From NCBI GenBank assembly GCA_023244895.1, contig JAHFLL010000001.1, forward strand, positions 681,802 through 745,801: 64,000 bases of DNA. The letters are read 5' to 3'. Made by a program: the position numbers and the translations under genes. Below, in pieces: positions 22,199 to 38,356 of the stretch. Under the pieces are notes generated by a model. That model was not told the DNA's origin. It made no database searches and was given only the letters and a program-made list of their open reading frames with translations. The stretch is from Candidatus Liptonbacteria bacterium (GTDB taxonomy: Bacteria; Patescibacteriota; Minisyncoccia; UBA6257; 2-01-FULL-56-20). Numbering within the stretch: the first letter of the stretch is position 1; each line of letters begins with the position of its first letter.

Positions 22199-24307
22199 TT
22201 ATTTCTGCTCCTCCATCTGCTTCAAAGACAAACCAATCTTACCCTCCTCCACCTTGATGATTTTGGCGGTGACAATATCTCCTAGATGGACTACCTCCGT
22301 CACGGTTTTAACAAAACCGTTCTTAAGCTCGGAAACGTGAATCATGCCGTCCTGCCCCCCGCCCAAATCCACTATCGCTCCGAAGTCCATAATGCGCACC
22401 ACCTTGCCAGTTACAACCTCCCCGATCGTAAACTCCCGAGTCATGGAACGGATCTGGCTGGCCGCCTCCTCTGCCTTACTTCTATCAATAGCGGCGATAA
22501 AGATACTGCCGTCTTCTTCTATGTCAATCGTGGTTAGTCCCAAATCGCGAATCATGCCGTTTATCATCTTGCCACCCGGTCCGATAACCATTCCGATTTT
22601 CTCCGGATTTATCTTGAGCTGAATAATCGTCGGCGCGTACACGGAAAGCTGTTTGCGAGGCTCGGGAATAACGGAGTTAATGACTCCCAGAATTTCCAGG
22701 CGGGCATCCTTGGCCTGCTTCATAGTCTGCTCAATTATCTGCTTGGTTAAACCAAACACCTTCACATCCAGCTGAATAGCGGTAATACCGTCTTTGGTGC
22801 CCGCCACCTTAAAGTCCATATCACCATAATGATCTTCCGGTCCCTGTAGGTCGGTTAGCACTCGGAAATTATCTCCCGACTCGTCCATCATGAGACCCAT
22901 CGCGATACCGGCCACTGGCTTCTTTAAAGGCACGCCAGCGTCCAGGAGCGACATGGTGGTCGCGCAAACTGTCGCCATAGAAGAAGATCCGTTTGAGGAC
23001 AGAATTTCGGTGACCACGCGGATGGTGTATGGGAATTGTTCCACGCCCGGGATCAGGGGCTTCAGGGCCTTCTCTGCCAAGGCGCCATGCCCAATTTCCC
23101 GCCTGCCCGGACCGCGGAAGTTACCAGTCTCCCCCACGGAATAGGGCGGGAAGTTGTAGTGCAACATAAATCTGCGCTTGGTGTTCGTCTCCATAGTCTC
23201 AATCAACTGCTCCGCGCCTGGTGCGGCCAAAGTCGTAACCGCAAGCGCCTGGGTGTTGCCTCTCACAAACAGAGCGGAGCCGTGAGTGCGCGAGAAAAGT
23301 CCTACCTCGCCGTAAAGCGGGCGAATCTCGGTTATCTTGCGCCCATCCACGCGCCGGTCTTTAGCGATAGCTTCCTTATGCGCTAAAGCATCTATCATTT
23401 CTTCCATAATGAAGTCCGCTGCTACCATATCCGGTTTTTCCAACTTCTCCGCAAGGTGCGCCCCGAGCTGTTCCTTTAGCTCGTTTAAGCGACGGGTATG
23501 TTCCATTTTATTGGACTGGAAAACAGCCTCTTCTAAACGAGGCGCCAAAAACTCCTCTACCGCGGAGCGCAACTCCGGTGCCGGTTCATAAACCTTGACC
23601 TGCACTTTAGGCTTGCCGATTTCCGCGATAATTTTGGATTGAAAATCAATCAGTTTGTTTATCTCTGTTTGCGCGAGCTCAAAAGCGTGCATTACGTCCG
23701 CCTCCTGCGCCTCCATACCGGAAAGCTCTATCATACTGATGCGGTCTTTGGGTCCGGCCGCGAAAGTTTCAAATACAAAATCTTTTTCGGCGAGGCGAGA
23801 GTTGTTAGGGTTGACCACAAAGTCGTTCCCTATTTTAGCCACGCGCACTCCACCCACAGGACCGGCCCAAGGAATATCGGAAGTGCCGAGCGCGGTAGAA
23901 GCCGCGACGAGACCGATGAAATCAGGGTCATTCTCCTCGTCTATCGCGAGCACGGTTACCACCACTTGCATATCCCGGCGAATACGTTGGTCAAAAAGCG
24001 GACGCAGCGTGCGGTCTATTAGGCGACCGGAAAGGACCGCGTCTTCCGAAGACCTGCCCTCTCTGCGCACGTAACGGCTACCCAAGATTTTGCCCGCCGC
24101 GTAAAATCTTTCTTCGTAATCCACCTTGAGCGGCAGATAGTTGGCGGTAGACTCAAAGGGAGCCATAACCGCGGTTGCCAAAACTACCGTCTCGCCATAC
24201 TTGGCAAGCACCGCCGAGTTCGCCTGCTCCGCCATTATGGAGAACTCCAGAGAGAAGGTCTTACCTCCTATCTCGGTTGTAAACTTCTTTTTATTCATTT
24301 CTTTCAT
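22199..24307 (-). CDS. pnp: Polyribonucleotide nucleotidyltransferase (PNPase)
   Basis: 702 aa; two RNase PH-like domains plus KH and S1 domains at the C-terminus; classic rpsO-pnp neighbourhood. Confidence 0.95.
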   Translation of the reverse strand: MKEMNKKKFTTEIGGKTFSLEFSIMAEQANSAVLAKYGETVVLATAVMAPFESTANYLPLKVDYEERFYAAGKILGSRYVRREGRSSEDAVLSGRLIDRTLRPLFDQRIRRDMQVVVTVLAIDEENDPDFIGLVAASTALGTSDIPWAGPVGGVRVAKIGNDFVVNPNNSRLAEKDFVFETFAAGPKDRISMIELSGMEAQEADVMHAFELAQTEINKLIDFQSKIIAEIGKPKVQVKVYEPAPELRSAVEEFLAPRLEEAVFQSNKMEHTRRLNELKEQLGAHLAEKLEKPDMVAADFIMEEMIDALAHKEAIAKDRRVDGRKITEIRPLYGEVGLFSRTHGSALFVRGNTQALAVTTLAAPGAEQLIETMETNTKRRFMLHYNFPPYSVGETGNFRGPGRREIGHGALAEKALKPLIPGVEQFPYTIRVVTEILSSNGSSSMATVCATTMSLLDAGVPLKKPVAGIAMGLMMDESGDNFRVLTDLQGPEDHYGDMDFKVAGTKDGITAIQLDVKVFGLTKQIIEQTMKQAKDARLEILGVINSVIPEPRKQLSVYAPTIIQLKINPEKIGMVIGPGGKMINGMIRDLGLTTIDIEEDGSIFIAAIDRSKAEEAASQIRSMTREFTIGEVVTGKVVRIMDFGAIVDLGGGQDGMIHVSELKNGFVKTVTEVVHLGDIVTAKIIKVEEGKIGLSLKQMEEQK

Positions 24308-24409
24308 GTTTTTGTTTTTATTTTTTGTTATTTATGAGCTCAAATTAAAAAAGCCTATGCGGCATTACTTGATTTTAACTCGTTTTTATTTGGTTTTTAT
24401 GACTTTTTA

Positions 24410-24997
24410 TTAGCGTCTTAAAATTATCCTGGGTATCGACTCCAAGTTAATAAATTTGTCCACCGCTTCCTGCAATTTGGAAGAAGTACTGCGGTGAAAC
24501 CCAGCCACCTCCACTCTGCGTCCGCGGCCATGCTTCAAATATTCCACGAGTGGTATGTAATCTCCGTCTCCAGTTACAAGTATAATAACGTCCAGAAAAT
24601 CACACATACGGATGGCGTCTACCGCCAAGCCCACATCCCAATCTCCTTTCTTTAGGCCATCGCCGTAAACCTGCAGGTCTTTAACCCGCAATTCCAATCC
24701 GGATTTCTCCAGAGCGTCAAAGAAAGCGCTTTCGGTAGAGAGCCCCTTTTGGCGCTGATTTACAACCTGCTCTAGGGGATGTACAGAGGCCTCCACTCCT
24801 TCGCTTTTGATAACGTAAGCCATAGCACGAATAAGCTGGCGGGGGCCAACCAAGTGCTTCATCATCTCCGCGTAGTTAACCCGGCCATGGTAGATGTTCT
24901 TGGCGGAATGATACAGATTGGAAACGTCCACAAATATACCAACTCTCTGATTGGGCAGATAGTCGGATTGTGGGCGCACTTTACGTTCGGGAATCAT
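24410..24997 (-). CDS. NYN-domain (LabA-like) predicted ribonuclease
   Basis: GIFVDVSNLYH...ILVTGDGDYIPLVEYLKHGRRVEVAGF matches the NYN/LabA motif pattern. Confidence 0.7.
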   Translation of the reverse strand: MIPERKVRPQSDYLPNQRVGIFVDVSNLYHSAKNIYHGRVNYAEMMKHLVGPRQLIRAMAYVIKSEGVEASVHPLEQVVNQRQKGLSTESAFFDALEKSGLELRVKDLQVYGDGLKKGDWDVGLAVDAIRMCDFLDVIILVTGDGDYIPLVEYLKHGRGRRVEVAGFHRSTSSKLQEAVDKFINLESIPRIILRR

Positions 24998-25886: not shown

Positions 25887-26804
25887 ATGGGGTTAATGTC
25901 TAATCTGAAGGAGCTGGTACAAGATTATCTGAACTACCTGGAGATAGAAAAGGGGCGCTCCCCTCGCACCCGCGAGAACTACGAGCACTATCTCGCGGAC
26001 TTTATGGCCTACGCCAAAATCTCCTCCCCCAAAGACATTACCGACCGCCTGGTGCGCGAATATCGCTTGAATCTCGCACGGCGGGATATCAAAAAAATCA
26101 GCCAGAACTACTACACCATCGCTCTGCGCAACTTTCTAAAATATCTGGCACGGCGGGACGTTGTCTCTCTCCAGCCGGATAAAATTGAGCTGGCGAAAGT
26201 TTCCCGCGCGCAAATAGAAATATTGGAATATCAGGATTTAGAAAGGCTGCTCCAGGCGCCCCAGGGCGGAGACTTGCGCTCTCTGCGGGATAAGGCGATT
26301 TTGGAAATGCTTTTTTCAACCGGCCTGCGCTTGGCGGAACTGTGCTCTCTGGAGCGATATCTGAATTTGGAGCGGGGAGAATTTACGGTGCGGGGCAAGG
26401 GCGATAAGTTGCGGGTGGTTTTCTTATCCGACCGCGCCAAAAAAGCTATTAAGCAATACCTGGACAAGCGCACCGACGCGGAGCCGTATCTCTTCGTGAG
26501 TCTTTCTAAAATTGCCAAGGGCTCCAAAAAGGAGCCGAAGGTGCTGGGCAGAATAACCCCCCGGGCGGTGGAGCGGGCGGTGGAGCACTGGTCCAAGGTG
26601 GCGGGCATTCCCAAGCATATTCATCCCCACCAGCTACGACACAGCTTCGCGACCGATCTTTTAATGAACGGGGCGGACCTACGCTCCGTGCAAGAGCTCC
26701 TGGGTCATGCCAATATTTCTACTACTCAAATCTACACCCATCTAACCAACAAGGAACTTAAAGAGATCCACGAGGCCTTCCATGGCCAAAGGAGGAAGAA
26801 GTAA
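25887..26804 (+). CDS. Tyrosine site-specific recombinase of the XerC/XerD family
   Basis: C-terminal catalytic region HQLRHSFATDLLMNGADLRSVQELLGHANISTTQIYTH (R...H-x-x-R...Y); N-terminal SAM-like domain; extended -10 tgtggtagaat upstream. Confidence 0.9.
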   Translation: MGLMSNLKELVQDYLNYLEIEKGRSPRTRENYEHYLADFMAYAKISSPKDITDRLVREYRLNLARRDIKKISQNYYTIALRNFLKYLARRDVVSLQPDKIELAKVSRAQIEILEYQDLERLLQAPQGGDLRSLRDKAILEMLFSTGLRLAELCSLERYLNLERGEFTVRGKGDKLRVVFLSDRAKKAIKQYLDKRTDAEPYLFVSLSKIAKGSKKEPKVLGRITPRAVERAVEHWSKVAGIPKHIHPHQLRHSFATDLLMNGADLRSVQELLGHANISTTQIYTHLTNKELKEIHEAFHGQRRKK

Positions 26805-26842: not shown

Positions 26843-26884
26843 CTACTCCACGATAATTAACGATCGTTAATTATCGTGGAGTAG
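26843..26884. repeat. Perfect 42-bp palindrome with a 6-bp centre cgatcg and AT-rich arms, immediately 3' of the xer gene. Candidate dif-like site
   Basis: ctactccacgataattaacgatcgttaattatcgtggagtag is its own reverse complement. Confidence 0.6.
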
Positions 26885-26922: not shown

Positions 26923-27747
26923 TTAATTTCTAAGCCAACCCTTAAGATTAATAACCTCCACCACCCTCCCTAAAACATCCGATTCCTTGATCGGACCAAA
27001 TTCCCGGGAATCATAAGATGAGTCCATATTGTCGCCCATCATAAAATATTCTTTGTCCTTTAGGTTGACTACGAGCCCTTCCGGGTAGGTGCCATGATAG
27101 AATCTGTTCTTTACGGCTTGACCATTCACGAGCATCTCCCCATCCTTAATCTCCAGGGTTTCGTTCGGTAGCGCCACTACTCTTTTAGCCAGGCGCGTGC
27201 CCGGACTTTCTTCTATGGAAAATATTAATACGTCTTCCCTCTCTATCTTCCCGCCCGCCCGACTGGTTAAGAGATAATCTCCAGACAGATAGGCAGGTTG
27301 CATGGAGTTGCCGCTCATTAGATAGGGCTCGTAGGGATATAGTTTTTTTGCTATAAACGCAGTGGGAACGGATATCAAATTCCCGATTATTATAAATGTC
27401 ATAAAAATCAGGAAACTTTTCCCGAAACTGATGGGGCTGACCCTATTAATAAAAAAGTGGACCGTATAAGTGGCCAGGATCAGACCTATTACCAGTATTC
27501 CCAAATAGGTTACTACCACAAGACCCATGTTTACCCGCGAATCTCCCGAAATGTCGAACCCGCCAGAAAGGCTTATTAAAACCAAAAGTACCGTTGATAG
27601 AATGAGCAGTAAAAATACCGTGCCGAGCGACCTCTTCCAGGAAACATCCTCTATCCCAAATAATCGCACCACAAAATAAAAGACGGCCACTTCTATGATT
27701 AGGAGGCCCCCGGCGGTCAAAAACATATAGAACATCTGCGCGAGCAC
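26923..27747 (-). CDS. lepB: Signal peptidase I
   Basis: Motifs GNSMQPAY (Ser box), AKRVVALPNE and GDNMDSSYDSREFG (GDNR-x-x-S-x-DSR); N-terminal TM helices. Confidence 0.85.
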   Translation of the reverse strand: MLAQMFYMFLTAGGLLIIEVAVFYFVVRLFGIEDVSWKRSLGTVFLLLILSTVLLVLISLSGGFDISGDSRVNMGLVVVTYLGILVIGLILATYTVHFFINRVSPISFGKSFLIFMTFIIIGNLISVPTAFIAKKLYPYEPYLMSGNSMQPAYLSGDYLLTSRAGGKIEREDVLIFSIEESPGTRLAKRVVALPNETLEIKDGEMLVNGQAVKNRFYHGTYPEGLVVNLKDKEYFMMGDNMDSSYDSREFGPIKESDVLGRVVEVINLKGWLRN

Positions 27748-29618: not shown

Positions 29619-31145
29619 CTACAGATTTTTTACGGTTTGTATCAAGCCTGCAATTGAGTTTTTTAACTCAATATCCGTATAATTAAAACTCTGCATCGTT
29701 TTATTTTCAGGATGATGCGTTTTATTTCTTATGAATGTTGGCAAGGTAACATCTATTTCTCCCTGGGACACTCCTCCGTACTCGGGATTCCACTTTTTAG
29801 TGGCTGCTATTTTTGTTTGTAAATAATCCTTCTCAAACACGGTTTGCTTACCCCTGCTATCGGCATCTGATTGATCAGTGGCCTTACTGATGAAAAGTTC
29901 GTGCAAATAACCATATAGCTCATCGTGAAATTCTATCGTGGGCATATCGTAAGCAAAATAATTAATTTCTCCCCAAGATGGGCTCCAAGAAGGGAAAAGC
30001 CCCCATCCTTTAGATCTTGCATCCTCAATCTTGATCTTATTATTCACGTCTCTAGTAAATAGCAGGAGCGTGGCATTCTGGGAAATGGCGCCCTTAAACA
30101 AATAGGGTGAGTGGGTAGAAACAATTATTTGTTTACTTTTCGATTCTTCAAGTAATAACTCCAACAGCTTTTCTTGTGCTTTGGGGTGAAGATGTAGTTC
30201 TGGTTCGTCAATTAAATAAACAATGCTGCCTTTTGAAGCTCCTGCTATGTTTTTTAGTATCAAAAGAGTCAATATTATCTCTACGCCAGAACCTAAATCC
30301 CTGACATTAATTTGAGACAAGGTATTTTCATCTCGTAAAGCGAAAAAGGCCGCGGAGAAAGGATGTAGAATATTTAAAAGTTCAATTTTAATTTTCTCAA
30401 ATTCGTCTTTTCCAAAAAACTCTTTTAACTCTTTAGTGGTCTTTTGGCTAAAACTCTTATTTGCAATCGCATCAACATTTTTAAAATATTCCCCTGCAAT
30501 ATTCTGAGAAATCATATTTATATTCTCATCTGTTAAATTCTTAACAAATGTCCAATTCAGATCATCACAGATTTTTTCGAAAGTTGTTTTATAGTTTCCA
30601 GTAGTAATTTGTCTTGTCCTATTTTTATCGAAAAAGAATATATTCAGTTCGTCGCTATCGTTGATTCTCGATTTGGAAAATATTTTATCTCTCCCATCAA
30701 TCTCTTTCCCCTGCGAACCATCTCCTTTTATATAATTGGCTTCTGTAATAAAGGAGTTATTTATTTGAAAAGGACTAGATAACAAATTTCCTCTTTCCTT
30801 GGTATCCCTACTCTTGGCCTTAAAAGAAACGCCCTTTGCTTTAAAACTCCAATCCTTATAAAAATCAATTCCCGAACCACAACCGAACTCATCACTCTCA
30901 GCTTCGACAAGTATCTCTTTTTTGAAATCAAAGAAATCGTTAATGCTTAATTTATTTTCCGCGGAAAAACTATTAAGCGTGAGATAATTAACTGCTTCAA
31001 GGACAGTAGTTTTTCCATTTCCATTCTCTCCAATGAGAATATTTAGACCGCTTCCACGATTTCCATTTGGAACATTAAAACTAATCGGTTCATTTTCAAA
31101 ACATCTATAGTTTTGAATCTTTAATTTTTTTATGAATATGGCCAT
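29619..31145 (-). CDS. AAA_21/AAA_15-type ABC-like ATPase. It has an OLD/RecF-like N-terminal ATPase head and a C-terminal roughly 150-aa domain of unknown type. Candidate defence ATPase
   Basis: N-terminus IKKLKIQNYRCF; Walker A motif GENGNGKTT; Walker B / D-loop motif VYLIDEPELHLHP...STHSPYLF; gene sits in an AT-rich island. Confidence 0.75.
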   Translation of the reverse strand: MAIFIKKLKIQNYRCFENEPISFNVPNGNRGSGLNILIGENGNGKTTVLEAVNYLTLNSFSAENKLSINDFFDFKKEILVEAESDEFGCGSGIDFYKDWSFKAKGVSFKAKSRDTKERGNLLSSPFQINNSFITEANYIKGDGSQGKEIDGRDKIFSKSRINDSDELNIFFFDKNRTRQITTGNYKTTFEKICDDLNWTFVKNLTDENINMISQNIAGEYFKNVDAIANKSFSQKTTKELKEFFGKDEFEKIKIELLNILHPFSAAFFALRDENTLSQINVRDLGSGVEIILTLLILKNIAGASKGSIVYLIDEPELHLHPKAQEKLLELLLEESKSKQIIVSTHSPYLFKGAISQNATLLLFTRDVNNKIKIEDARSKGWGLFPSWSPSWGEINYFAYDMPTIEFHDELYGYLHELFISKATDQSDADSRGKQTVFEKDYLQTKIAATKKWNPEYGGVSQGEIDVTLPTFIRNKTHHPENKTMQSFNYTDIELKNSIAGLIQTVKNL

Positions 31146-31165: not shown

Positions 31166-31663
31166 CTATTTAGCCATTTCGCATTTACCAGAAGATACTA
31201 TCGCTCCCGTTCCGAGTGTCGCGATATCAACAAATTCTCCTTTATCGCCTAAGGCATCTCCAGTGACAACCTTGAACATCATTGCTTGACCTTGCAATGG
31301 AGTAAATTGTGTAAATTCTCCAGAAATGTGTACCTCAACTGGATATGAATCACATCCTTTAGTATCACACCTAAAATAGGTTCCGCTCTCAGTTCCATAA
31401 TCTACGAAATAATAAGTTGCTGGAGTTGAAGCCGTACAACTACCCCCACCACAATCAAACCGACTTGTCGGAAAACAAGAAAGCTCGGCGATATCTGCCA
31501 TTGCGGAATGTTGTGAGGATTCTTCATATGCGATCCTCAATGACTCGGTGGGCGGGATGATTACAGTTGTCGTTTGAACCTTTTCTTTATTTCCAAAAGC
31601 AATATAGGAAAAAATACCCAATAGAATTACAAGCATGCCAATAATTAAATTTTTCTTTTCCAT
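31166..31663 (-). CDS. Small exported Cys-rich protein (165 aa; N-terminal TM or signal sequence, 8 Cys)
   Basis: N-terminus MEKKNLIIGMLVILLGIFSYIAFG; downstream domain with CFPTSRFDCGGGSC...CDTKGCDS...GKCE. Confidence 0.55.
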   Translation of the reverse strand: MEKKNLIIGMLVILLGIFSYIAFGNKEKVQTTTVIIPPTESLRIAYEESSQHSAMADIAELSCFPTSRFDCGGGSCTASTPATYYFVDYGTESGTYFRCDTKGCDSYPVEVHISGEFTQFTPLQGQAMMFKVVTGDALGDKGEFVDIATLGTGAIVSSGKCEMAK

Positions 31664-31907
31664 ATGTTTGAAAATGTCCTTATTTACTTGGGTTCGAACT
31701 TGGAAATCTGGCGGAGAGGAAGGACGCTAAGCTATTCGAACGCACTCCAGTTCCTATTGTAGCCCCGCCGGATTGTTTGGCAAATATGGGGTCATTAAGG
31801 ATTATAGCCCTCTTTCGCTTTTCTAGTTTATGTAGCAATAAATTGTATCCTTTGCGTGAACCTTTTTGAGACGAACTGACACGCCCGGACATAATTTTCT
31901 GCGACGA

Positions 31908-34900
31908 TTATTCTAATTTCAACATCTCCTTTATCTCTAGCACGCACCGCGCCAAATCGTTTTGGAGTTGGTACACCCAAAATCGTTTGACTCGCCATCC
32001 GTGCATGATGAGATGCTGGTCTCGCTTCAAATCCGACAGTAAGCGGCCTCCGTCAATGTCGCGATGCCACATCTCACCGTCAATCTCAATATCAATCGGG
32101 ATTTCCGAATCAAGGACGGCGAGATCAAGGCGATATTGATATAGCGGGTACTGCGAGACGGTTCTGATACCTTCCCGCGCGAGGGCGTCATACAAAACTT
32201 CCTCCCATGGTGACTCAAATTTTCCTCCACTCTTGTTTTTGTTTTCCGGCTCCAGCTCCTCGACATACTGCACGAACTCTGAAAGGTGCGAGATGCCGGA
32301 TTGGGCGCAAGCTACCCTGTCGCCGACAATGTGCAACTCCGCCCTTGCACGGGTAATCGCGACATTAAACAGGTTTACCGTGCTCCCTAAAAATCCTAGT
32401 GAGCGTTGTTGAATTTTACGCGACACAACCGGAGAGAAAATCATTATGTCGCGTTCGTCTCCTTGATATTTATGCGCGGTATCAACCGTAAAATCCAGCT
32501 TCCGCAACTCCGCCGCGTCTATTTTTTGTTCTACCAAATCTCTGATTTTATTCGCTTGCTCTCGAAACGGCGTAACGACGCCAAGTGATACAGAGTAGTC
32601 GTCGCCGTGGGCGGAAATCCTGCCGATGATTTCTCCAATCAATACAACAATCGCCTTCGCCTCTTCCAGATTGTATGCGCTTCCGGCAGATGGCCGGACA
32701 ACCTCACCGACGACATTGTGCCATGTGAGAGCGTCGGGGTGTCCCGCACCGCGCAATCTACGATAATCCGTCCAGACGCTCAACTTGCCACCATAAAATT
32801 TCTTATTGGAAAAACCGATAATTTCGGCGCGGCTGCGGTAGTGTTCGAGCAAGTGAATGAATTTTGCCCCGGTTCCCACAACGCTTCGTGCAAGCTCAAA
32901 GAGCGAGTTTATGCTGTAAAGAAAACGTTGGTCGTCGGTTGAGGTTAGACTAATCTGCCGTTGTAACTGTTGATCGTCCACCCGATGCAAAAGCGAGATG
33001 TGCGTAAGCTGATTTGGATCGCCAACAATAACGGCTCGTTTCGCGCGATAAAGTAGTGGAATCGCGGACGCGATGTCGCACTGGGAGGCTTCATCAATAA
33101 TCACAACATCAACGGCTCCTGCGCTCAACGGAAGCGCATGACGGACAGATAGATTTGTAACTGCCATCGCCGGAAACGCTTTTACTACGCTCTTAAACAT
33201 TCTCTTGCGCTCATTTCTCAGTTCCTCCGCGAGCTCACCTCCTGTTACGTCGCCCTCCAGTCGGCGCACGATACTCACATAATCCGCAATATCGCGTCGT
33301 TCCTTGGGGCCGAGCGATTTTAAGCGACGTTTCATTAGCGCATCAACATATCTAACGCTAATGTCTATCGCGCGTTCTTTACTTTTTGTGATTCGCTCCC
33401 GTAAAACCTCTACTCGCGCTTCATTCTCGTTCTCTCGCACAATTCCCAAAAGCTCCGATTGATTATCAATCCATTTTTTTAATGCACGGCAAATCGTCAA
33501 AAGCTCGCGACAGGCATGGATAGAATTAAGCGAGAGGGGGATATCTTCAATCGGCGCAAGCGCGAGTAAAGATTTTGCCGTTTCTAAAACTCGCTTTTCC
33601 AGCGTGGAACCAAAAAACGCGAGAATGCGCGAGATAAAACTAGGCCCTTCGTCAACTTCTTTTACCAAACGACTCAACGAAATAAGAGAGGCATAAAACT
33701 CCTGTTTCCCCTCGATTTTTTGGTACGAATCGAGATTGCGAGAAATTGACGAGGGCAATTCCGCTCTAACAGATTCAAGCGTGACATCAAGACGACTTAT
33801 TCGATTCCTGCGGGCAAGGATGCGGAACAGCGATTGCTGTGCCTCTTTTTCTTCTGAGCGCACTAATTCAAGTTCCTTTTTGTACTCGCTGATTTCTCGC
33901 TCTAATGACTGGTTGTTGTAGCTTGAGGCACGTTCAATCGCCGACAAGAGCGCTTCCGCAAATTCAATCTCGCGTTCTTTCTGTCCGTATTTCAGAATGA
34001 CCGGCTCGGACTGAAGCCTCAATAATCGTTCGATAACAACATCAACCGCTTTGTGATTTTTACTTCCGAACAAGACGCTTTCATTACGAAGTAGTGCGTT
34101 AGCAATAATATTGAGAACAATTTGCGACTTTCCGGTTCCGGGCGGGCCGGTAATGACGCTAACCGTGTTGTTAAAAGCACTTTTTACCGCGCCTCGCTGT
34201 TCGTCATTCAATCCGGTTATTTCCAGCAATCCTTCACCATTATCCTCTTTAACTTCTGCGTTTCTATCAAGAATTACGCGCCATACATCATTAGGAACGG
34301 TCGTGTCTCGTAATTCGCTCAATTCTTGTTCTAGCCCACCAGTATATTTTGAATCTGCGCTCCGAAAAATAACGCCGAGAGGGAAAACGCCGCTCTCTGC
34401 TTTTAGTTCCGTTGTCTTTCCGCCAAGAATATCTTTTGAGAACGGAACCTCTTGTGGTAGAAGTTCGGCGAACGCACCCAAAATAATTTTGAGGTTCTGC
34501 CCCCTGTTTTTTTCATCGTCCCACGACTCTAAAACTGCTTCGGCTATTTGCTTTCTTTCCTCAACGCTCGTTAATAAACTTTTGTCTGTAAGAAAAGCAG
34601 AGTTGATTCTCGGTCTATCCGATTGCAAAATGAAAGCGTATCCGGTTTCTGTTTGAATAAGATCTATTCCAAAAATTAGAATGGGTTGAATGATCTGACC
34701 CGACCATCCTCGCCGCGATTGTCCAATTTGTTTTATGTGGCAAGGAAAGCCGTAGAAATACGAAAGCGGACTGCGACTCCATCGGGGACCACTGATGAAC
34801 GCTTGGATTTTTTCATTCTGCCCCTCAAATTCTAGCTTTTCTTTGCCGGACGCAATCCATTCTTTTTTCATCGTAGGCACCTGTAAAAACTCCACCCCCT

Positions 34901-35096
34901 CTTTTGACGAGTAGAGCGTAATTTCTCCGGCGTTCTCAACAGAAATGCACGAACCGTAATACTTGAGAAGTTTTTGCCAGCGCAAAGATGTCGGGTCGGT
35001 ATGAACCACCGGAGCTTCGTTTTCCGTTTTTCGCGCGATTGTCGTTCGCCTATATCCGCTCCGACCTCTGTATTTGTTGCGATAGTAGATTGCCAT
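31908..35096 (-). CDS. Large SF1 (Upf1/DNA2-like, AAA_11+AAA_12) helicase. It has an uncharacterized N-terminal domain of about 300 aa and a C-terminal DUF559/Vsr-like PD-(D/E)xK nuclease domain
   Basis: Motif I GPPGTGKSQ; motif II VIIDEASQ; VGDPNQL; YRSRAEIIGFSN; motifs V/VI VDTAHKYQGDERDIMIF; C-terminal RLDLAVLDSEIPIDIEIDGEMWH (DUF559-like). Confidence 0.8.
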   Translation of the reverse strand: MAIYYRNKYRGRSGYRRTTIARKTENEAPVVHTDPTSLRWQKLLKYYGSCISVENAGEITLYSSKEGVEFLQVPTMKKEWIASGKEKLEFEGQNEKIQAFISGPRWSRSPLSYFYGFPCHIKQIGQSRRGWSGQIIQPILIFGIDLIQTETGYAFILQSDRPRINSAFLTDKSLLTSVEERKQIAEAVLESWDDEKNRGQNLKIILGAFAELLPQEVPFSKDILGGKTTELKAESGVFPLGVIFRSADSKYTGGLEQELSELRDTTVPNDVWRVILDRNAEVKEDNGEGLLEITGLNDEQRGAVKSAFNNTVSVITGPPGTGKSQIVLNIIANALLRNESVLFGSKNHKAVDVVIERLLRLQSEPVILKYGQKEREIEFAEALLSAIERASSYNNQSLEREISEYKKELELVRSEEKEAQQSLFRILARRNRISRLDVTLESVRAELPSSISRNLDSYQKIEGKQEFYASLISLSRLVKEVDEGPSFISRILAFFGSTLEKRVLETAKSLLALAPIEDIPLSLNSIHACRELLTICRALKKWIDNQSELLGIVRENENEARVEVLRERITKSKERAIDISVRYVDALMKRRLKSLGPKERRDIADYVSIVRRLEGDVTGGELAEELRNERKRMFKSVVKAFPAMAVTNLSVRHALPLSAGAVDVVIIDEASQCDIASAIPLLYRAKRAVIVGDPNQLTHISLLHRVDDQQLQRQISLTSTDDQRFLYSINSLFELARSVVGTGAKFIHLLEHYRSRAEIIGFSNKKFYGGKLSVWTDYRRLRGAGHPDALTWHNVVGEVVRPSAGSAYNLEEAKAIVVLIGEIIGRISAHGDDYSVSLGVVTPFREQANKIRDLVEQKIDAAELRKLDFTVDTAHKYQGDERDIMIFSPVVSRKIQQRSLGFLGSTVNLFNVAITRARAELHIVGDRVACAQSGISHLSEFVQYVEELEPENKNKSGGKFESPWEEVLYDALAREGIRTVSQYPLYQYRLDLAVLDSEIPIDIEIDGEMWHRDIDGGRLLSDLKRDQHLIMHGWRVKRFWVYQLQNDLARCVLEIKEMLKLE

Positions 35097-35121
35097 AATT
35101 ACGAGCGAAAGTTCCTATTAG

Positions 35122-35208
35122 CGGAGAGGGAGGGAGTCGAACCCTCGAAGCCGGTTAAGGCTTACGCGCTTTCCAAGCGCGCGCACTAGGCCACTATGCG
35201 ACCTCTCC
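35122..35208 (-). tRNA. tRNA-Ser (anticodon GGA), a type II tRNA with a long variable arm
   Basis: Minus-strand sequence GGAGAGGTCGCATAGTGGCCTAGTGCGCGCGCTTGGAAAGCGCGTAAGCCTTAACCGGCTTCGAGGGTTCGACTCCCTCCCTCTCCG: 7-bp acceptor stem, anticodon loop TTGGAAA, T-loop TTCGACT, discriminator G, no encoded CCA. Confidence 0.85.
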
Positions 35209-35229: not shown

Positions 35230-35811
35230 CTAAAGCCCGATATTTTCAATCCTGGAAATTATCTCCGCCTCCTCTTCGCACCAGGGAGAATACGTGCCGG
35301 GCTTATTCCTTATTTCCTCCAAAAACTCCTGCCAGGGCACAGAGCGCACCGCCTCCACCTCCTCCGGATTGATAATCGGCTCTTGGTCCGAGAACCCGAT
35401 AAATATCGGGCAGATTTCATTTTCCATTACCCCATCTTTGGTAAAGCAGTAGCGATAAGGCGCTACTTCCTTCACTTCTATGCCCGTAAGTCCCAGCTCG
35501 TCTTTTAGTCTCCTTTTGACCGCCTCCCCTCTATCTTCCCCGGGCGAGGGATGCCCGCAACAACTATTGGACCAGACTAAGGGCCAGGTTTTCTTTTTAG
35601 AACTTCTTTGCTGGAGCAATAATTCTTTCTTGGAGTTAAATAGAAAAAAGGAAAAGGCGCGATGAAGGGGCGTCTGCACCCCGTGCACTAATGCCTTAGG
35701 CATAGTGCCAATTTCCCTATCATCCTCATCCACCAGAACGACCGACTCTGCCATTGTGTCGTCTGCCAGGTCCCCATTTTTACCGGGTGACTCCATTGCG
35801 CGTTGTTCCAT
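35230..35811 (-). CDS. idi: Isopentenyl-diphosphate delta-isomerase, type 1 (Nudix family)
   Basis: HRAFSFFLFN and WSNSCCGHP motifs plus Nudix box GEDRGEAVKRRLKDELG. Confidence 0.8.
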   Translation of the reverse strand: MEQRAMESPGKNGDLADDTMAESVVLVDEDDREIGTMPKALVHGVQTPLHRAFSFFLFNSKKELLLQQRSSKKKTWPLVWSNSCCGHPSPGEDRGEAVKRRLKDELGLTGIEVKEVAPYRYCFTKDGVMENEICPIFIGFSDQEPIINPEEVEAVRSVPWQEFLEEIRNKPGTYSPWCEEEAEIISRIENIGL

Positions 35812-35923
35812 GTTTTAAATATAACTCTACTTATGACGGTTGCAAATTAAGTACCCCTGCTTCTAGGACGCGATATTCTCCACAAGGAGGCATGCTGCCA
35901 AATTGTGTATAATATAATTATCA

Positions 35924-35937
35924 AACAAAGGCCGAAC
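35924..35937. promoter_or_regulatory. 14-bp palindrome GAACAATATTGTTC overlapping the promoter and start region of the zinc-ribbon gene. Candidate operator. An extended -10 tgtgtataat lies upstream
   Basis: Direct reading: ...ttgtgtataatataattatcaaacaaaggccgaacaatattgttcagtt. Confidence 0.4.
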
Positions 35938-35941
35938 AATA

Positions 35942-36244
35942 TTGTTCAGTTATTATTTACCCATGGGAATTTTAGACGACGCAGTTAATTCCGTTAAAAA
36001 CAGCTTGAAATGGAAGGCTCAAGGCGCGATAAATAGCGGGGTAGAAAAGGGCATCGGTTCCGTGATCTCACGATTCAAAAACAAATGTCCAAAATGCGGC
36101 AAGGCAGTGACGGAAGAGGGCGCGAAATTCTGCCCCAATTGCAGTGCCAACCTAGTTCTTACCTGCAGTAACCCGAACTGTCAGCGCATCTCTCCTATCG
36201 GCACAAAGTTTTGTCCCGCTTGCGGAGGAAAATTAAAGGCCTAA
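35942..36244 (+). CDS. Double zinc-ribbon small protein
   Basis: CPKCGK...CPNCSAN...CSNPNCQ...CPACGG: four CxxC pairs. Confidence 0.6.
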   Translation: MFSYYLPMGILDDAVNSVKNSLKWKAQGAINSGVEKGIGSVISRFKNKCPKCGKAVTEEGAKFCPNCSANLVLTCSNPNCQRISPIGTKFCPACGGKLKA

Positions 36245-36309
36245 AGAACTCGGACGGGGGGTTCAAATAAAATGCCAAGTAGACATAATTTGAGCGCATA
36301 CACTCTAAA

Positions 36310-36552
36310 ATGAATAAAGATGAGTTAGAAAAAACATTAGATAAAATAAGACCTACAATTACCCCTTTTGGCTGTAAGTTGAGCGTTGACAGCATAGATG
36401 GCGACGAGATCAAATTGAAGATGGACTGTCCGCCCCTTGACATGTTCAAGGTGCAGGGCAAGACGGTTAGCATGCAAGACGAGTTTAAAAAGAAAATTAT
36501 AGATCGCATTCAAACCGGCTACGCAAGCGCAAAAGTGACATTTATCCAATAA
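36310..36552 (+). CDS. Small NifU/Nfu C-terminal-domain-like protein (tentative)
   Basis: LDKIRPTITPFGCKLSVDSIDGDEIKLKMDCPP resembles the Nfu pattern IRP...DGGD.ELV...G.C. Confidence 0.4.
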   Translation: MNKDELEKTLDKIRPTITPFGCKLSVDSIDGDEIKLKMDCPPLDMFKVQGKTVSMQDEFKKKIIDRIQTGYASAKVTFIQ

Positions 36553-36556
36553 AACC

Positions 36557-37618
36557 ATGAATCTAAAAAGTTTGAGGTTTAATCTGCCCCCTAGTTGGCG
36601 GGAGATTTCCCGTTCCGGCAATGAAAACCAGCTGGTTTTAAGGTTGTACCACATAAATCCCGTTTCCCAGGTTGATTCCAAAATTTTCCAGGACCAACTG
36701 ATTTCTTCTAGTGACACATCCTCTGTTTCTAAAATAGCGGTTTCTACACCATCTGGAGTGGGTGGTTCTTATGCGGATTTCTTTAAGGGCATGCAAGGAT
36801 TCATAGATAGTGGCTTCGCGCCCGCTCATATGACCTCCAGCTGGTTGAATGATTTTCGCACCAAGGCAACTAAAAGACCCGGGGCGGAGGTGCCGGATGA
36901 ATCTGACCTGACCGGAGACCTCTCTATCGTGCAGAGCAAAACCAAGGACATTGCCGAACAGGTTTTCCAGGGTTATGCCTCCTTCCCGCTCGGCCCCTTC
37001 GGCGGACCGATCCCGGGCGGCCCGGTTTCTAATGGAAAAGCTATGAACTTTATGGATTTGATGGAAAGCGATGCCTTAAAGTCGGTTGTTTCCAAGGAAC
37101 AGCTGGCTCAGATGAATCTGCTGTCAAAAGAGATGAAAAAACAACTGCCCAAAATCCAAGCGGAAGCTAAAAAAACCGGAATGAAATATAGAGAAGAAAA
37201 ATATTTAGGCTACCGGGCTATTTTTTGCGACATGCCCAATCCCAACCCCCCGCCCAAGCCGCCCAGCCCGATTCCCAAGGGTAAGTTTCAAGGCGGAGGC
37301 AGTCGTGGCAACAACGTCACCATTCCCCTACCTAAAGCATCAACCCCCTACTCCAAAACCATAAGCACTTGCCAAGCGGTTATTGTTAAAAATTTCGTGG
37401 TCACGGGCGGCTTACTGGCAGCAGCCTCCTTTCTGCCTCCCGGGAAGACTCCCTGCTACTCGCTCAAAAAAACGGAAAAAAGGACTGAAACTGTGGAGGG
37501 CATAAAGTCAACTTACATCATCGCCTCCGCGAGCACTTACGCGCAAGAAGGATACTTGAATAGAGAGGAAGTGGAAAAGGCGCTGAGTTGTGTTTTCTCT
37601 AAACTAAAAAGTCAGTAG
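36557..37618 (+). CDS. Hypothetical protein (353 aa) with a Pro-rich PNPNPPPKPPSPIP segment
   Basis: Long ORF with average composition and no recognised motifs. Confidence 0.5.
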   Translation: MNLKSLRFNLPPSWREISRSGNENQLVLRLYHINPVSQVDSKIFQDQLISSSDTSSVSKIAVSTPSGVGGSYADFFKGMQGFIDSGFAPAHMTSSWLNDFRTKATKRPGAEVPDESDLTGDLSIVQSKTKDIAEQVFQGYASFPLGPFGGPIPGGPVSNGKAMNFMDLMESDALKSVVSKEQLAQMNLLSKEMKKQLPKIQAEAKKTGMKYREEKYLGYRAIFCDMPNPNPPPKPPSPIPKGKFQGGGSRGNNVTIPLPKASTPYSKTISTCQAVIVKNFVVTGGLLAAASFLPPGKTPCYSLKKTEKRTETVEGIKSTYIIASASTYAQEGYLNREEVEKALSCVFSKLKSQ

Positions 37619-37663
37619 CGCGAATAAGCGCAAGCCCCTCTCAGTCTGGGCCTCCTGGCGAAA

Positions 37664-38356
37664 TTAGCTAACTACTGTCCCCCTAAATTCTCGGCCCTTC
37701 ACTAATTTTTCAAAATTATCCAATTCCCGACCATCTATCACTATCGCGTTTATCTTTGCGCGCATAGCGAGCTTGGTTGCTACCGGATCTACCGGAGCAT
37801 GCATACCCGGATTCCACTTTGTCGGGATAAGCTTGCGGTATTCCTTCCAGCTCATTCCCTCAAATTTTTTGGCTTTGGGGTTTTTGACCGGATCGCTTGA
37901 ATACACAAAGTCCGGCTTGCCCGCTACTATCACTTCTTTTATTTTAAGCTTTTCCGCCATCGCAAAAGCGATATAATCCGTGGACCAGCCCGGATGCCAG
38001 CCGGAAGCGACGGTTATTTTGTATTTTAGTTTTTTGACCTTGTCCGCGCCATCCACCACCACCGGGTCCGCCACGTCCCGAAAAACGGTGCGAATAAGAT
38101 GAGCGTTCAACCTGGTCGCGTGAATACCCAGCCAATCTTTATCTTCGTTGGTAACCTTGGTGAGCGCGCTCGCCGCTTTCTGGTACTCGCGCGCGACTCC
38201 CCCGCCGCCTATAACCACCACTATCTTTTTGCCCGAACGTATCAGGGGTTTTATAAATTTCTGAAATCTCCTTAAAAACTCCACATTCACTCCATCCGGA
38301 CAGACTATTGAGCCACCCAGGCCAATTATTATTTCCGAACCAAATTTATATCTCAT
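37664..38356 (-). CDS. pyrH: Uridylate (UMP) kinase, archaeal type
   Basis: IIIGLGGSIV...VVVIGGGGVAREY and GWHPGWSTDY match archaeal PyrH (GGTHPGHTTDA); amino-acid-kinase fold. Confidence 0.8.
   Translation of the reverse strand: MRYKFGSEIIIGLGGSIVCPDGVNVEFLRRFQKFIKPLIRSGKKIVVVIGGGGVAREYQKAASALTKVTNEDKDWLGIHATRLNAHLIRTVFRDVADPVVVDGADKVKKLKYKITVASGWHPGWSTDYIAFAMAEKLKIKEVIVAGKPDFVYSSDPVKNPKAKKFEGMSWKEYRKLIPTKWNPGMHAPVDPVATKLAMRAKINAIVIDGRELDNFEKLVKGREFRGTVVS

What the first reader, a model, noticed from the sequence alone, without database searches (positions are those of the whole stretch)
31908..35096. 1062-aa helicase with an unassigned N-terminal domain of about 300 aa and a C-terminal DUF559-like nuclease
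The SF1 motifs (GPPGTGKSQ, VIIDEASQ, VGDPNQL, QGDERDIMIF) and the C-terminal Vsr/DUF559-like motif (LDLAVLDSEIPIDIEIDGEMWH) are clear. The first roughly 300 residues match no domain I recognise. Helicase-nuclease fusions of this size are effector candidates in defence islands (Nhi-like logic), but this one has the nuclease at the C-terminus and an orphan N-terminal domain.
Basis: partly seen in the sequence, partly recalled or inferred. Interest (0 to 1): 0.6.

Follow-up and report, generated by a model that had tools for sequence, protein, structure and literature searches.

The report
Standalone CnuH/Hhe-like helicase-nuclease gene
This is a real 1062-residue enzyme joining a UPF1-type helicase to a Vsr-type nuclease; it is an uncharacterised, horizontally mobile, stand-alone cousin of the helicase of Type III-B CoCoNuT restriction systems and of the anti-phage protein Hhe, and its 'orphan' front domain is that family's own conserved domain.

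Summary
ORF 31908-35096 (-) encodes 1062 aa with every quoted motif at the stated place. Residues 34-295 hit nothing in Pfam, NCBIfam, PDB sequences or PDB folds.

The domain is not an orphan. It is conserved in about 1000 protein clusters, always at the N-terminus and always followed by the same helicase. It is homologous (hhalign 99.8%) to the pre-helicase region of CnuH, the helicase-Vsr protein of Type III-B CoCoNuT systems. It is probably a remote relative of DUF4011 (74-92%), the equivalent domain of the validated anti-phage protein Hhe.

The window protein has no CnuA-D partners and no conserved neighbour. It is scattered over many phyla. It is 88% identical to a copy in a genome whose only shared neighbouring gene is 50% identical. 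It starts 25 nt after a tRNA-Ser gene, and its relatives sit next to tRNAs, recombinases, restriction-modification, TIR, Septu and MADS genes.

Best reading (about 0.6): a single-gene nucleic-acid-targeting immune helicase-nuclease. It is a new compact variant of a known kind. Function is inferred, not shown.

The parts
31908..35096 (-). Complete gene for the 1062-aa helicase-nuclease
   Evidence: ORF list. Full-length homologs run from 94% down to about 30% identity. Full-length AlphaFold model has pLDDT 85.6 and pTM 0.81.
34998..35096 (-). Residues 1-33: disordered basic R/Y-rich tail. This is the clade-specific form of a variable N-terminal add-on.
   Evidence: pLDDT <50 for residues 1-27. 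The tail is conserved in close homologs. Other members have nothing here, or (in the examples read) a ~70-aa wHTH-like module, a Topo-I-type zinc ribbon or a WYL-like module.
34212..34997 (-). Residues 34-295: family-specific N-domain (alpha/beta). Conserved motifs: YY..C, YGFP, P-I-L-I-F, PRIN, WD, S.YT.GLE.EL.
   Evidence: No Pfam or PDB match. Profile finds 995 clusters, always N-terminal and followed by Walker A. hhalign 99.8% to Type III-B CnuH N-regions. hhalign 74-91.5% to DUF4011 regions, with controls <0.5%. Its last helices align to the IGHMBP2 segment just before RecA1.
33981..34211 (-). Residues 296-372: RecA1 first part with Walker A (GPPGTGKSQ 317-325)
   Evidence: AAA_11/AAA_19/AAA_30 hits. 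G317-Q325 are conserved in the 69-sequence alignment: eight of the nine positions invariant, P319 nearly so.
33177..33980 (-). Residues 373-640: all-helical (coiled-coil-like) insertion in RecA1 between Walker A and motif II
   Evidence: DSSP of the model shows only long helices from 373 to 640. The paper describes the same feature for all CnuH helicases (PMC11090510).
32247..33176 (-). Residues 641-950: rest of RecA1 (DEASQ 668-672, GDPNQL 692-697) and RecA2 (QGDERD 878-883, NVAITRAR 911-918)
   Evidence: AAA_12 4.7e-29. Motif residues are invariant across the family. Foldseek matches SETX/Sen1/UPF1/IGHMBP2/Aquarius/DNA2/ZNFX1 at E 1e-23 to 1e-15.
31917..32219 (-). Residues 960-1060: Vsr-like PD-(D/E)xK nuclease (MTES_1575/DUF559)
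   Evidence: Pfam MTES_1575 and DUF559. PDB 3hrl 'endonuclease-like protein' matched by the profile. Q982, E1004, D1006, G1007, H1011, D1022 and R1025 are invariant and D991 nearly so.
35121..35208 (-). tRNA-Ser(GGA), ending 25 nt upstream of the helicase start codon. Candidate integration site.
   Evidence: ARAGORN and Rfam. A tRNA lies within 600 nt of the helicase in 6 of 51 loci against about 0.9 expected, P=3e-4.
31711..31741 (-). Possible decayed copy of the tRNA-Ser T-arm/acceptor 3' end, just after the helicase stop codon (att-like remnant). Weak evidence.
   Evidence: GTTCGA-N(4-20)-CCTCTCCGC occurs only here and in the tRNA; 0.01 expected. The motif was chosen after seeing it, and the junction alignment is not significant.

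Best explanation
The gene encodes a self-contained, single-polypeptide immune (anti-phage / anti-mobile-element) helicase-nuclease. It belongs to the superfamily that contains Hhe and the CnuH subunit of Type III-B CoCoNuT systems.

Proposed mechanism; every step below is inferred unless marked shown:
1. The basic tail and the N-domain, which sits just before RecA1 where UPF1-like helicases carry their stalk/1B module, bind or gate single-stranded nucleic acid of an invader.
2. The UPF1-like SF1B motor uses ATP to translocate 5'->3' on that strand. Motor motifs intact: shown. Polarity: inferred from the clade.
3. The long helical insertion in RecA1 mediates self-association or autoinhibition. 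In CoCoNuT relatives it is proposed to dock coiled-coil partners.
4. The C-terminal Vsr-like PD-(D/E)xK domain cuts the substrate. Catalytic-type residues conserved: shown. Activity and DNA-versus-RNA preference: unknown.

The gene moves horizontally as a one-gene cargo. In this genome it lies in a small islet directly downstream of tRNA-Ser.
For: Architecture and integrity:
- All helicase motifs and the acidic/His residues of the nuclease are invariant over 69 sequences down to about 30% identity.
- The full-length model is confident.
- The nearest folds are UPF1-like helicases.

Kinship with known immune proteins:
- PADLOC hits MkoC 1e-64, PDC-S37 1e-56, MkoA and Hhe 3e-29.
- NCBIfam hits ProA 7.6e-65 and Hhe 1.8e-39 over the RecA2 and nuclease half.
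- The N-domain is homologous to the N-region of helicases embedded in seven operons. Those operons have a coiled-coil protein, a coiled-coil NxD McrB-like GTPase, a DUF2357 McrC-like protein and a protein of about 800 aa. They match Type III-B CoCoNuT as described in PMC11090510.
- Hhe is experimentally anti-phage, and a mutation in its Vsr domain (E1731A) abolishes defence (bioRxiv 10.1101/2022.06.16.496414).

Mobility and context:
- Taxa are scattered from Patescibacteria and Nanoarchaeota to Actinomycetota.
- No neighbour is conserved among 31 standalone loci: 161 Pfam families in 134 neighbours.
- The helicase is 88% identical to a relative while the only shared neighbour is 50% identical.
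- tRNA adjacency is enriched.
- Close relatives lie next to serine recombinase/HTH_17, Type ISP and MmeI-like restriction-modification genes, or a ThsB-like TIR gene.
- Septu PtuA (2.5e-106) and MADS mad3 (5e-95) occur among the neighbours.
- Here, a low-GC AAA_15 ATPase lies next door.
Against: - No experiment exists on any member of this clade.
- Membership of Hhe, ProA and MkoC fails their curated cut-offs.
- Many neighbours are ordinary housekeeping genes, so the defence-island signal is moderate and was not compared with a genome-wide background.
- xseA/xseB adjacency in 3 of 7 close relatives could point to DNA processing or repair instead.
- The helicase GC (0.47) equals the window average (0.48), so it is not a recent compositional alien.
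- The att-like repeat is weak.
- The CoCoNuT authors predict RNA targeting for their systems, so even the substrate class is open.
Confidence: 0.6

Rival explanations
1. It is a genome-maintenance enzyme: a Dna2/AddAB-like helicase-nuclease that processes ssDNA ends or flaps, possibly working with exonuclease VII.
For: DNA2 is among the sequence and fold relatives. xseA/xseB lie directly beside the gene, overlapping by 40 bp or 2 bp away, in P0008 and P0016, and just upstream in P0004. The GC content is native-like.
Against: There is no xseA in this 64-kb window. Gene order relative to xseAB differs between relatives, and recombinase/HTH_17 genes accompany it there, which suggests a shared integration spot. 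The patchy distribution and the 88% versus 50% identity contrast do not fit a vertically inherited repair gene. The nearest characterised relatives are immune proteins.
Confidence: 0.12
2. It is cargo that serves a mobile element itself, for example in replication or transfer, in exclusion of competing elements, or as an addiction-type toxin, and does not protect the host.
For: Serine recombinase and HTH_17 lie beside it in three relatives. T4SS coupling-protein and integrase genes occur among the neighbours. About five IMG/VR contigs carry a family member, and one BFVD structure matches the N-domain. tRNA adjacency is enriched.
Against: It is very rare on viral contigs (about 5 of 2.9 million), and three of those five loci begin at a contig end. 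In this window no recombinase, replication or transfer genes lie within the islet; the nearest tyrosine recombinase is 5 kb away beyond housekeeping-type genes. Exclusion of competitors would in practice be the same biochemical activity as defence.
Confidence: 0.13
3. It is one subunit of a multi-gene system with its downstream neighbours, the 165-aa protein and the 508-aa AAA_15/AAA_21 ATPase. That would be Gabija-like logic: ATPase plus SF1 helicase.
For: All three genes are on the same strand and closely spaced. No minus-strand terminator-like site was found in the 244-nt gap. The ATPase resembles GajA/PtuA/NsnB ATPases. AAA_21 matches 4 and AAA_15 3 of the 134 neighbour proteins, the window's own ATPase included.
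Against: None of the six closest relatives examined has this ATPase or the 165-aa gene. GC is 0.35 and 0.40 against 0.47 for the helicase, which indicates separate acquisition. A promoter-like site lies in the gap. The other AAA_15/21 neighbours match bona fide Septu and MADS models, that is, independent systems.
Confidence: 0.07

Closest known systems
CnuH of Type III-B CoCoNuT systems (Bell et al., eLife 2024, PMC11090510)
   Same: A UPF1-like SF1 helicase with a large helical/coiled-coil insertion after Walker A and a Vsr-like PD-(D/E)xK nuclease fused directly to the C-terminus. The pre-helicase N-domain is shared (hhalign 99.8%, E 9e-28, 249 columns). Identity is 34-37% over the helicase and nuclease parts. 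It is the sister clade in a distance tree.
   Different: There are no CnuA, CnuB (NxD McrB GTPase), CnuC (DUF2357) or CnuD genes anywhere in the 64-kb window, nor next to the other standalone members. The extra 120-200-aa N-terminal extension of CnuH, probably the 'Sul7s-like wHTH' of the paper, is missing; a 33-aa basic tail stands in its place. The taxonomic range is far broader than the mainly alphaproteobacterial III-B systems.
Hhe (single-gene anti-phage helicase-Vsr protein; NCBIfam NF042953, PADLOC PDLC02194) and ProA (NF058533)
   Same: It is a single polypeptide with a pre-helicase domain, a UPF1-like AAA_11/AAA_12 helicase and an MTES_1575/Vsr-like nuclease. The RecA2 and nuclease half aligns at E 1e-29 to 1e-65. 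The N-domain probably shares the DUF4011 core. Hhe defence needs its Vsr-domain glutamate.
   Different: It is about half the size: 1062 aa against about 1800-2200. There is no Pfam-detectable DUF4011, no DUF3320 tail, and no ~400-aa region ahead of DUF4011. Scores are far below the curated cut-offs: 135 against 2000 and 219 against 1500. It falls in a separate clade.
Mokosh MkoC/MkoA (PADLOC)
   Same: Best PADLOC score (MkoC 1.1e-64), covering the whole helicase core 295-944. It is in the same UPF1-like clade.
   Different: The match is to the helicase only. As I recall the Mokosh description (not re-read here), its effector is a PLD-family nuclease; no PLD domain is detected here and the nuclease is Vsr-like.
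Eukaryotic UPF1-like helicases (SETX/Sen1, UPF1, IGHMBP2, Aquarius, DNA2, ZNFX1)
   Same: They are the closest solved structures for the motor: Foldseek E 1e-23 to 1e-15, TM 0.45-0.62 normalised to the target. An accessory module precedes RecA1 and an insertion lies within RecA1.
   Different: None has the Vsr-like nuclease. The N-domain fold has no detectable match to their 1B/stalk modules by Foldseek.

Membership tests
Type III-B CoCoNuT (CnuH as part of the system) | UPF1-like SF1 helicase with a large helical/coiled-coil insertion after Walker A | tested here: met
   AAA_11/AAA_12. UPF1-clade folds. An all-helical insertion at 373-640 in the model.
Type III-B CoCoNuT (CnuH as part of the system) | Vsr-like PD-(D/E)xK nuclease fused directly to the helicase | tested here: met
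   MTES_1575/DUF559 at 965-1057. Catalytic-type residues are invariant.
Type III-B CoCoNuT (CnuH as part of the system) | Encoded with CnuB (coiled-coil NxD McrB-like GTPase), CnuC (DUF2357 McrC-like), CnuA and CnuD | tested here: not met
   tblastn of CnuA-D from three III-B loci finds nothing in the 64-kb window. No such neighbours occur in the other standalone loci.
Type III-B CoCoNuT (CnuH as part of the system) | N-terminal wHTH resembling Sul7s | tested here: not met
   The window protein starts with a 33-aa disordered basic tail. The CnuH-specific 120-200-aa extension ahead of the shared N-domain has no counterpart.
Hhe (NF042953) | Whole-protein score at or above the curated cut-off of the equivalog model | tested here: not met
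   135 bits against a cut-off of 2000. Only residues 627-1041 align.
Hhe (NF042953) | DUF4011 (PF13195) domain ahead of the helicase | tested here: inconclusive
   The Pfam model never hits, in the query at E<=10 or in 33 homologs at E<=1. Profile-profile comparison gives 74-91.5% probability over 71-92 core columns, with controls <0.5%.
Hhe (NF042953) | C-terminal DUF3320 after the nuclease | tested here: not met
   The protein ends 2 residues after the nuclease domain and has no DUF3320 hit. Hhe-type relatives in the genome scan do have it.
ProA (NF058533) | Whole-protein score at or above the curated cut-off | tested here: not met
   219 bits against a cut-off of 1500. Only residues 634-1058 align.
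Mokosh type II (MkoC) | PLD-family nuclease domain in the same protein as the helicase (feature recalled from the original description, not re-read here) | tested here: not met
   No PLD-family Pfam hit. The PADLOC match covers the helicase only, 295-944.
Nhi | Significant match to the Nhi model beyond the P-loop | tested here: not met
   PADLOC Nhi E 0.0056, residues 296-342 only.
UPF1-like SF1B helicases | Helicase motifs I, II, III, V and VI intact, and fold similarity to the clade | tested here: met
   Motifs located and invariant. Foldseek probability 1.00 to SETX, Sen1, UPF1, IGHMBP2 and DNA2.
UPF1-like SF1B helicases | 5'->3' translocation on ssRNA/ssDNA | not testable with these tools
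   Needs biochemistry.

The most novel reading that the evidence does not exclude
The compact standalone clade is a one-protein RNA-surveillance immune effector: a bacterial counterpart of UPF1/ZNFX1/Mokosh-type RNA-sensing immunity. In this reading the Pfam-invisible N-domain is a new sensor module that recognises a specific invader RNA or ssDNA structure and licenses the Vsr-like nuclease. The CoCoNuT III-B systems would have arisen when such a standalone effector was captured by an McrBC-like module.
Probability: 0.15. Interest if true: 0.7.

Novelty: new variant of a known kind. Interest (0 to 1): 0.4.

Why it matters
If it is confirmed as a defence gene, this would add a compact (about 1000-1100 aa), widespread, single-gene helicase-nuclease to the anti-phage repertoire. 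About 1000 clusters at 50% identity span many phyla, including CPR bacteria and a Nanoarchaeota MAG. Current annotation tools miss it: PADLOC matches only Mokosh/Hhe fragments, NCBI names it 'AAA domain-containing protein', and Pfam has no model for the N-domain.

It also links three things so far treated separately: Hhe/ProA (the DUF4011 giants), the CnuH subunit of Type III-B CoCoNuT, and a large standalone clade. In a distance tree the CoCoNuT helicase is nested among standalone enzymes, which suggests it was recruited from them. A tractable one-gene version could help test whether CnuH-type enzymes cut RNA or DNA, a question the CoCoNuT study left open.

Tried and rejected
2. Pfam at E<=10 on the N-terminal 308 aa and on the insertion gave nothing useful.
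3. The idea that the AAA_15 ATPase and the 165-aa ORF are partners was rejected on context and GC.
4. An att-type direct repeat bracketing the helicase: a post-hoc motif is unique, but the alignment is not significant against shuffles. I kept it only as a weak lead.
5. The supplement of the CoCoNuT paper is truncated before the Type III-B sheet, so no direct sequence comparison with the published CnuH was possible. I tested the defining features of the operon instead.
6. A CnuB profile against PDB was swamped by coiled-coil hits, and a CnuD profile found nothing. The Hsp70-like nature of the '+4' gene is therefore unverified.
7. No primary paper on ProA was found in the library.
8. The preprint on forked-DNA activation concerns Druantia III DruE, not a relative.
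9. The source organism was not identified.
10. The 244-nt gap after the helicase does not fold more stably than shuffles (z -0.69), and no minus-strand terminator-like site was found.
Full report
**1. Observation**

The ORF at 31908-35096 lies on the minus strand and encodes 1062 aa from an ATG.

Pfam assigns AAA_11 (from 296), AAA_12 (731-927), MTES_1575 (965-1057; 40.2 bits, cut-off 38.2) and a weaker DUF559 hit. PDB sequence and fold searches place the motor in the UPF1-like SF1B clade: senataxin/Sen1, UPF1, IGHMBP2, Aquarius, DNA2 and ZNFX1.

The first ~300 residues match nothing:
- Pfam at E<=10 gives no hit.
- NCBIfam gives no hit there.
- A PDB profile search finds nothing.
- Foldseek of a confident model (pLDDT 83) against PDB finds nothing.

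**2. The N-terminal region is a conserved family domain**

In a BLASTP of residues 1-295, 113 of the 120 listed homologs match, most of them over residues ~39-294. Conserved motifs are YY..C, YGFP, P-I-L-I-F, PRIN, WD and S.YT.GLE.EL.

A profile of the domain, searched against 1.84 billion representative proteins, finds 995 clusters at E<=1e-3 and 611 at E<=1e-10. Among the 150 best hits:
- The domain is always N-terminal.
- Every protein of at least 900 aa continues into a Walker A motif about 20 residues later.
- 57 of those 62 match a simple Vsr-type nuclease pattern.
- Shorter entries that extend far enough show the same Walker A and look like contig-end fragments.

The domain therefore belongs to one fixed architecture.

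What precedes it varies. Of 171 full-length members, 54 have nothing and 22, including the window's clade, have a ~33-aa basic R/Y-rich tail. The remaining 95 were not classified by rule; the examples I read have a ~70-aa wHTH-like module, a Topo-I-type zinc ribbon or a WYL-like module.

**3. Link to CoCoNuT**

I clustered the neighbours of 48 loci that carry the domain. No partner recurs for most of them. In seven loci (L018, L024, L026, L030, L034, L040, L049) there is a conserved same-strand set next to the helicase:
- A coiled-coil protein.
- A ~670-aa protein with a long coiled coil, a P-loop, a DEMN Walker B and an invariant T-M-N-E-D-E-S motif.
- A DUF2357 protein.
- A protein of about 800 aa.

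The N-x-D-E motif is the NxD McrB signature that defines CoCoNuT CnuB, and DUF2357 is the McrC N-domain (PMC11090510). The paper describes Type III-B CoCoNuT as the subtype whose UPF1-like CnuH has a large helical insertion after Walker A and a Vsr-like nuclease fused to it. That subtype also has separate CnuA and CnuD proteins and occurs mainly in Alphaproteobacteria. Four of my seven loci are alphaproteobacterial. The Hsp70-like nature of the ~800-aa protein could not be verified.

Profile-profile comparison of the window family's N-domain with the pre-helicase regions of these seven CnuH proteins gives 99.8% probability, E 9e-28, over 249 columns. The CnuH proteins carry an additional 120-200 residues in front, which is probably the paper's Sul7s-like wHTH.

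The window encodes no CnuA-D homolog in 64 kb. The window protein is therefore a standalone relative of CnuH, not a CoCoNuT system.

**4. Link to Hhe/ProA and DUF4011**

The genome scan also returned helicases that match only residues ~297-1061. The two giants of ~2000-2200 aa that I scanned have the order DUF4011, helicase, MTES_1575, DUF3320, which is the Hhe/ProA type. Of two ~1250-1400-aa proteins scanned, one has a partial DUF4011.

DUF4011 occupies the same pre-Walker-A position as the N-domain. hhalign of the N-domain profile against these regions gives 74-91.5% probability (E 1e-5 to 9e-7) over 71-92 columns. The match is centred on the 'P-L-I-L-V-P-V ... p-r-f-N' hairpin. Four controls give 0.1-0.4%: two unrelated alignments, the reversed DUF4011 alignment and the family's own helical insertion.

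I read this as probable remote homology that the Pfam DUF4011 model cannot see.

The last two helices of the N-domain align to the IGHMBP2 segment that immediately precedes RecA1. This fits the view that the domain stands where UPF1-like helicases carry their stalk/1B module. That is an inference from position, not a demonstrated fold match.

**5. Family tree**

A neighbour-joining tree of the motor and nuclease core, without support values, shows:
- All N-domain bearers form one clade, separate from the DUF4011 types.
- The III-B CnuH proteins form a nested subclade, sister to the group that holds the window protein.
- The one 'standalone' inside the CnuH subclade (L022) lies close to the end of the fetched locus, so partner genes downstream could not be checked.
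- Melainabacteria, Actinomycetota and a Peregrinibacteria/Nanoarchaeota pair branch deeper, and all are standalone.

**6. Context and mobility**

In the window the gene order on the minus strand is idi, tRNA-Ser(GGA), helicase, 165-aa ORF, 508-aa AAA_15/AAA_21 ATPase, methyltransferase.

The six close relatives examined (68-88% identity) each have a different neighbourhood:
- xseA-xseB and a prophage-like block ending in a serine recombinase.
- HTH_17, helicase, xseAB, RelA_SpoT, serine recombinase.
- A ThsB-like TIR gene, serine recombinase, HTH_17, helicase, xseA.
- serS, two tRNA-Ser genes, helicase, a Type ISP restriction-modification enzyme.
- MmeI-like methyltransferase/HNH and glycine-cleavage genes, then the helicase.

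. None has the ATPase.

Further evidence on mobility:
- The helicase is 88% identical to P0004's, whereas the only other gene shared between the two neighbourhoods, an amino-acid kinase, is 50% identical.
- The best species-representative genome among 185,579 species is only 34% identical, and hits span very different phyla.
- Across 31 standalone loci, 134 neighbours fall into 161 Pfam families, and no family occurs in more than 4 of them.
- The neighbours are a mix of housekeeping genes, mobile-element genes (integrases, T4SS coupling proteins) and genuine defence genes: PtuA 2.5e-106, mad3 5e-95, mad8, ResIII.
- tRNA genes lie within 600 nt of the gene in 6 of 51 loci, against ~0.9 expected (P=3e-4). 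Five of the six are upstream on the same strand.
- Only about five of 2.9 million viral contigs carry a member.

In the window the ATPase (GC 0.35) and the 165-aa ORF (0.40) differ in composition from the helicase (0.47; window 0.48). They look like a separate, later insertion.

A short motif shared by the tRNA 3' end and the region just after the helicase stop codon is unique in the window. I defined it after seeing it, and the junction alignment is not significant.

**7. Mechanism**

Shown:
- Intact helicase motifs and conserved nuclease residues over the whole family.
- A confident multi-domain model: disordered tail, alpha/beta N-domain, RecA1 split by a 268-residue all-helical insertion, RecA2, Vsr-like domain.

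Inferred:
- 5'->3' translocation on single-stranded nucleic acid, as in the UPF1-like clade.
- Cleavage by the Vsr-like domain, whose counterpart is required for Hhe defence.
- The N-domain and its variable add-ons as substrate-recognition or gating modules.
- The helical insertion as an oligomerisation or autoinhibition element. The CoCoNuT authors propose partner docking for the equivalent region.

Whether the target is DNA or RNA is open. For Hhe, a phage screen suggests activation by the function of phage DNA-metabolism genes, not by one protein.

**8. Verdict**

The defence-candidate idea stands, but the right frame is a standalone CnuH/Hhe-like helicase-nuclease, not a Nhi-like effector with an orphan domain.

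It is a new compact variant of a known kind and is uncharacterised experimentally. Current annotation resources give no model for the N-domain and no specific name for the protein. Interest is moderate.

Noticed in passing
window 29619-31145 (-): 508-aa AAA_15/AAA_21 ABC-type ATPase. It resembles NsnB, GajA, PtuA, AriA and OLD ATPases at E 1e-21 to 1e-26, and no Pfam or PADLOC match listed reaches past about residue 380. GC is 0.35 against 0.48 for the window. It looks like a separately acquired defence-type gene.
   Followed up: partly
window 31166-31663 (-): 165-aa ORF with a hydrophobic N-terminal segment and several Cys residues (CFPTSRFDCGGGSC...CDTKGCDSY...GKCE). No hit in Pfam, NCBIfam or PADLOC. 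GC 0.40. Only one member in its protein cluster.
   Followed up: partly
window 35121-35208 (-): tRNA-Ser(GGA), the only tRNA in the 64-kb window. It ends 25 nt before the helicase start codon, and a sigma-70-like site lies just upstream of it (35249-35221). The helicase might be co-transcribed with the tRNA.
   Followed up: partly
L002 8211-9976; L005 6497-8174; L090 7810-9430: Exonuclease VII genes (xseA, then a small xseB-like ORF) lie directly next to the helicase-nuclease in three of seven close relatives, in two different orders. HTH_17 and serine recombinase genes are nearby. This is unexplained: a shared integration hotspot or a functional link.
   Followed up: partly
L018, L024, L026, L030, L034, L040, L049 (e.g. 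L034 8858-19445): Operons matching Type III-B CoCoNuT (CnuH-Vsr, CnuA, CnuB with the NxD-E motif, CnuC with DUF2357, and a protein of about 800 aa). They occur also outside Alphaproteobacteria: Pontiella, Opitutaceae, Competibacteraceae. In L018 the helicase comes last instead of first.
   Followed up: partly
window 26843-26884: Perfect 42-nt palindrome (21+21, no spacer) between a XerC/D-like tyrosine recombinase gene (25887-26804, +) and the signal peptidase gene (26923-27747, -).
   Followed up: no
window 22199-24997 (-) and 35230-38356: Housekeeping-type surroundings: PNPase, a NYN-domain protein, IPP isomerase (idi) and an amino-acid-kinase-family protein. The source organism could not be named from public records.
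   Followed up: no
L023 10004-13360: A full-length family member (1118 aa) in a Nanoarchaeota MAG. This shows the family crosses the bacteria/archaea boundary, or that the contig is mis-binned.
   Followed up: no
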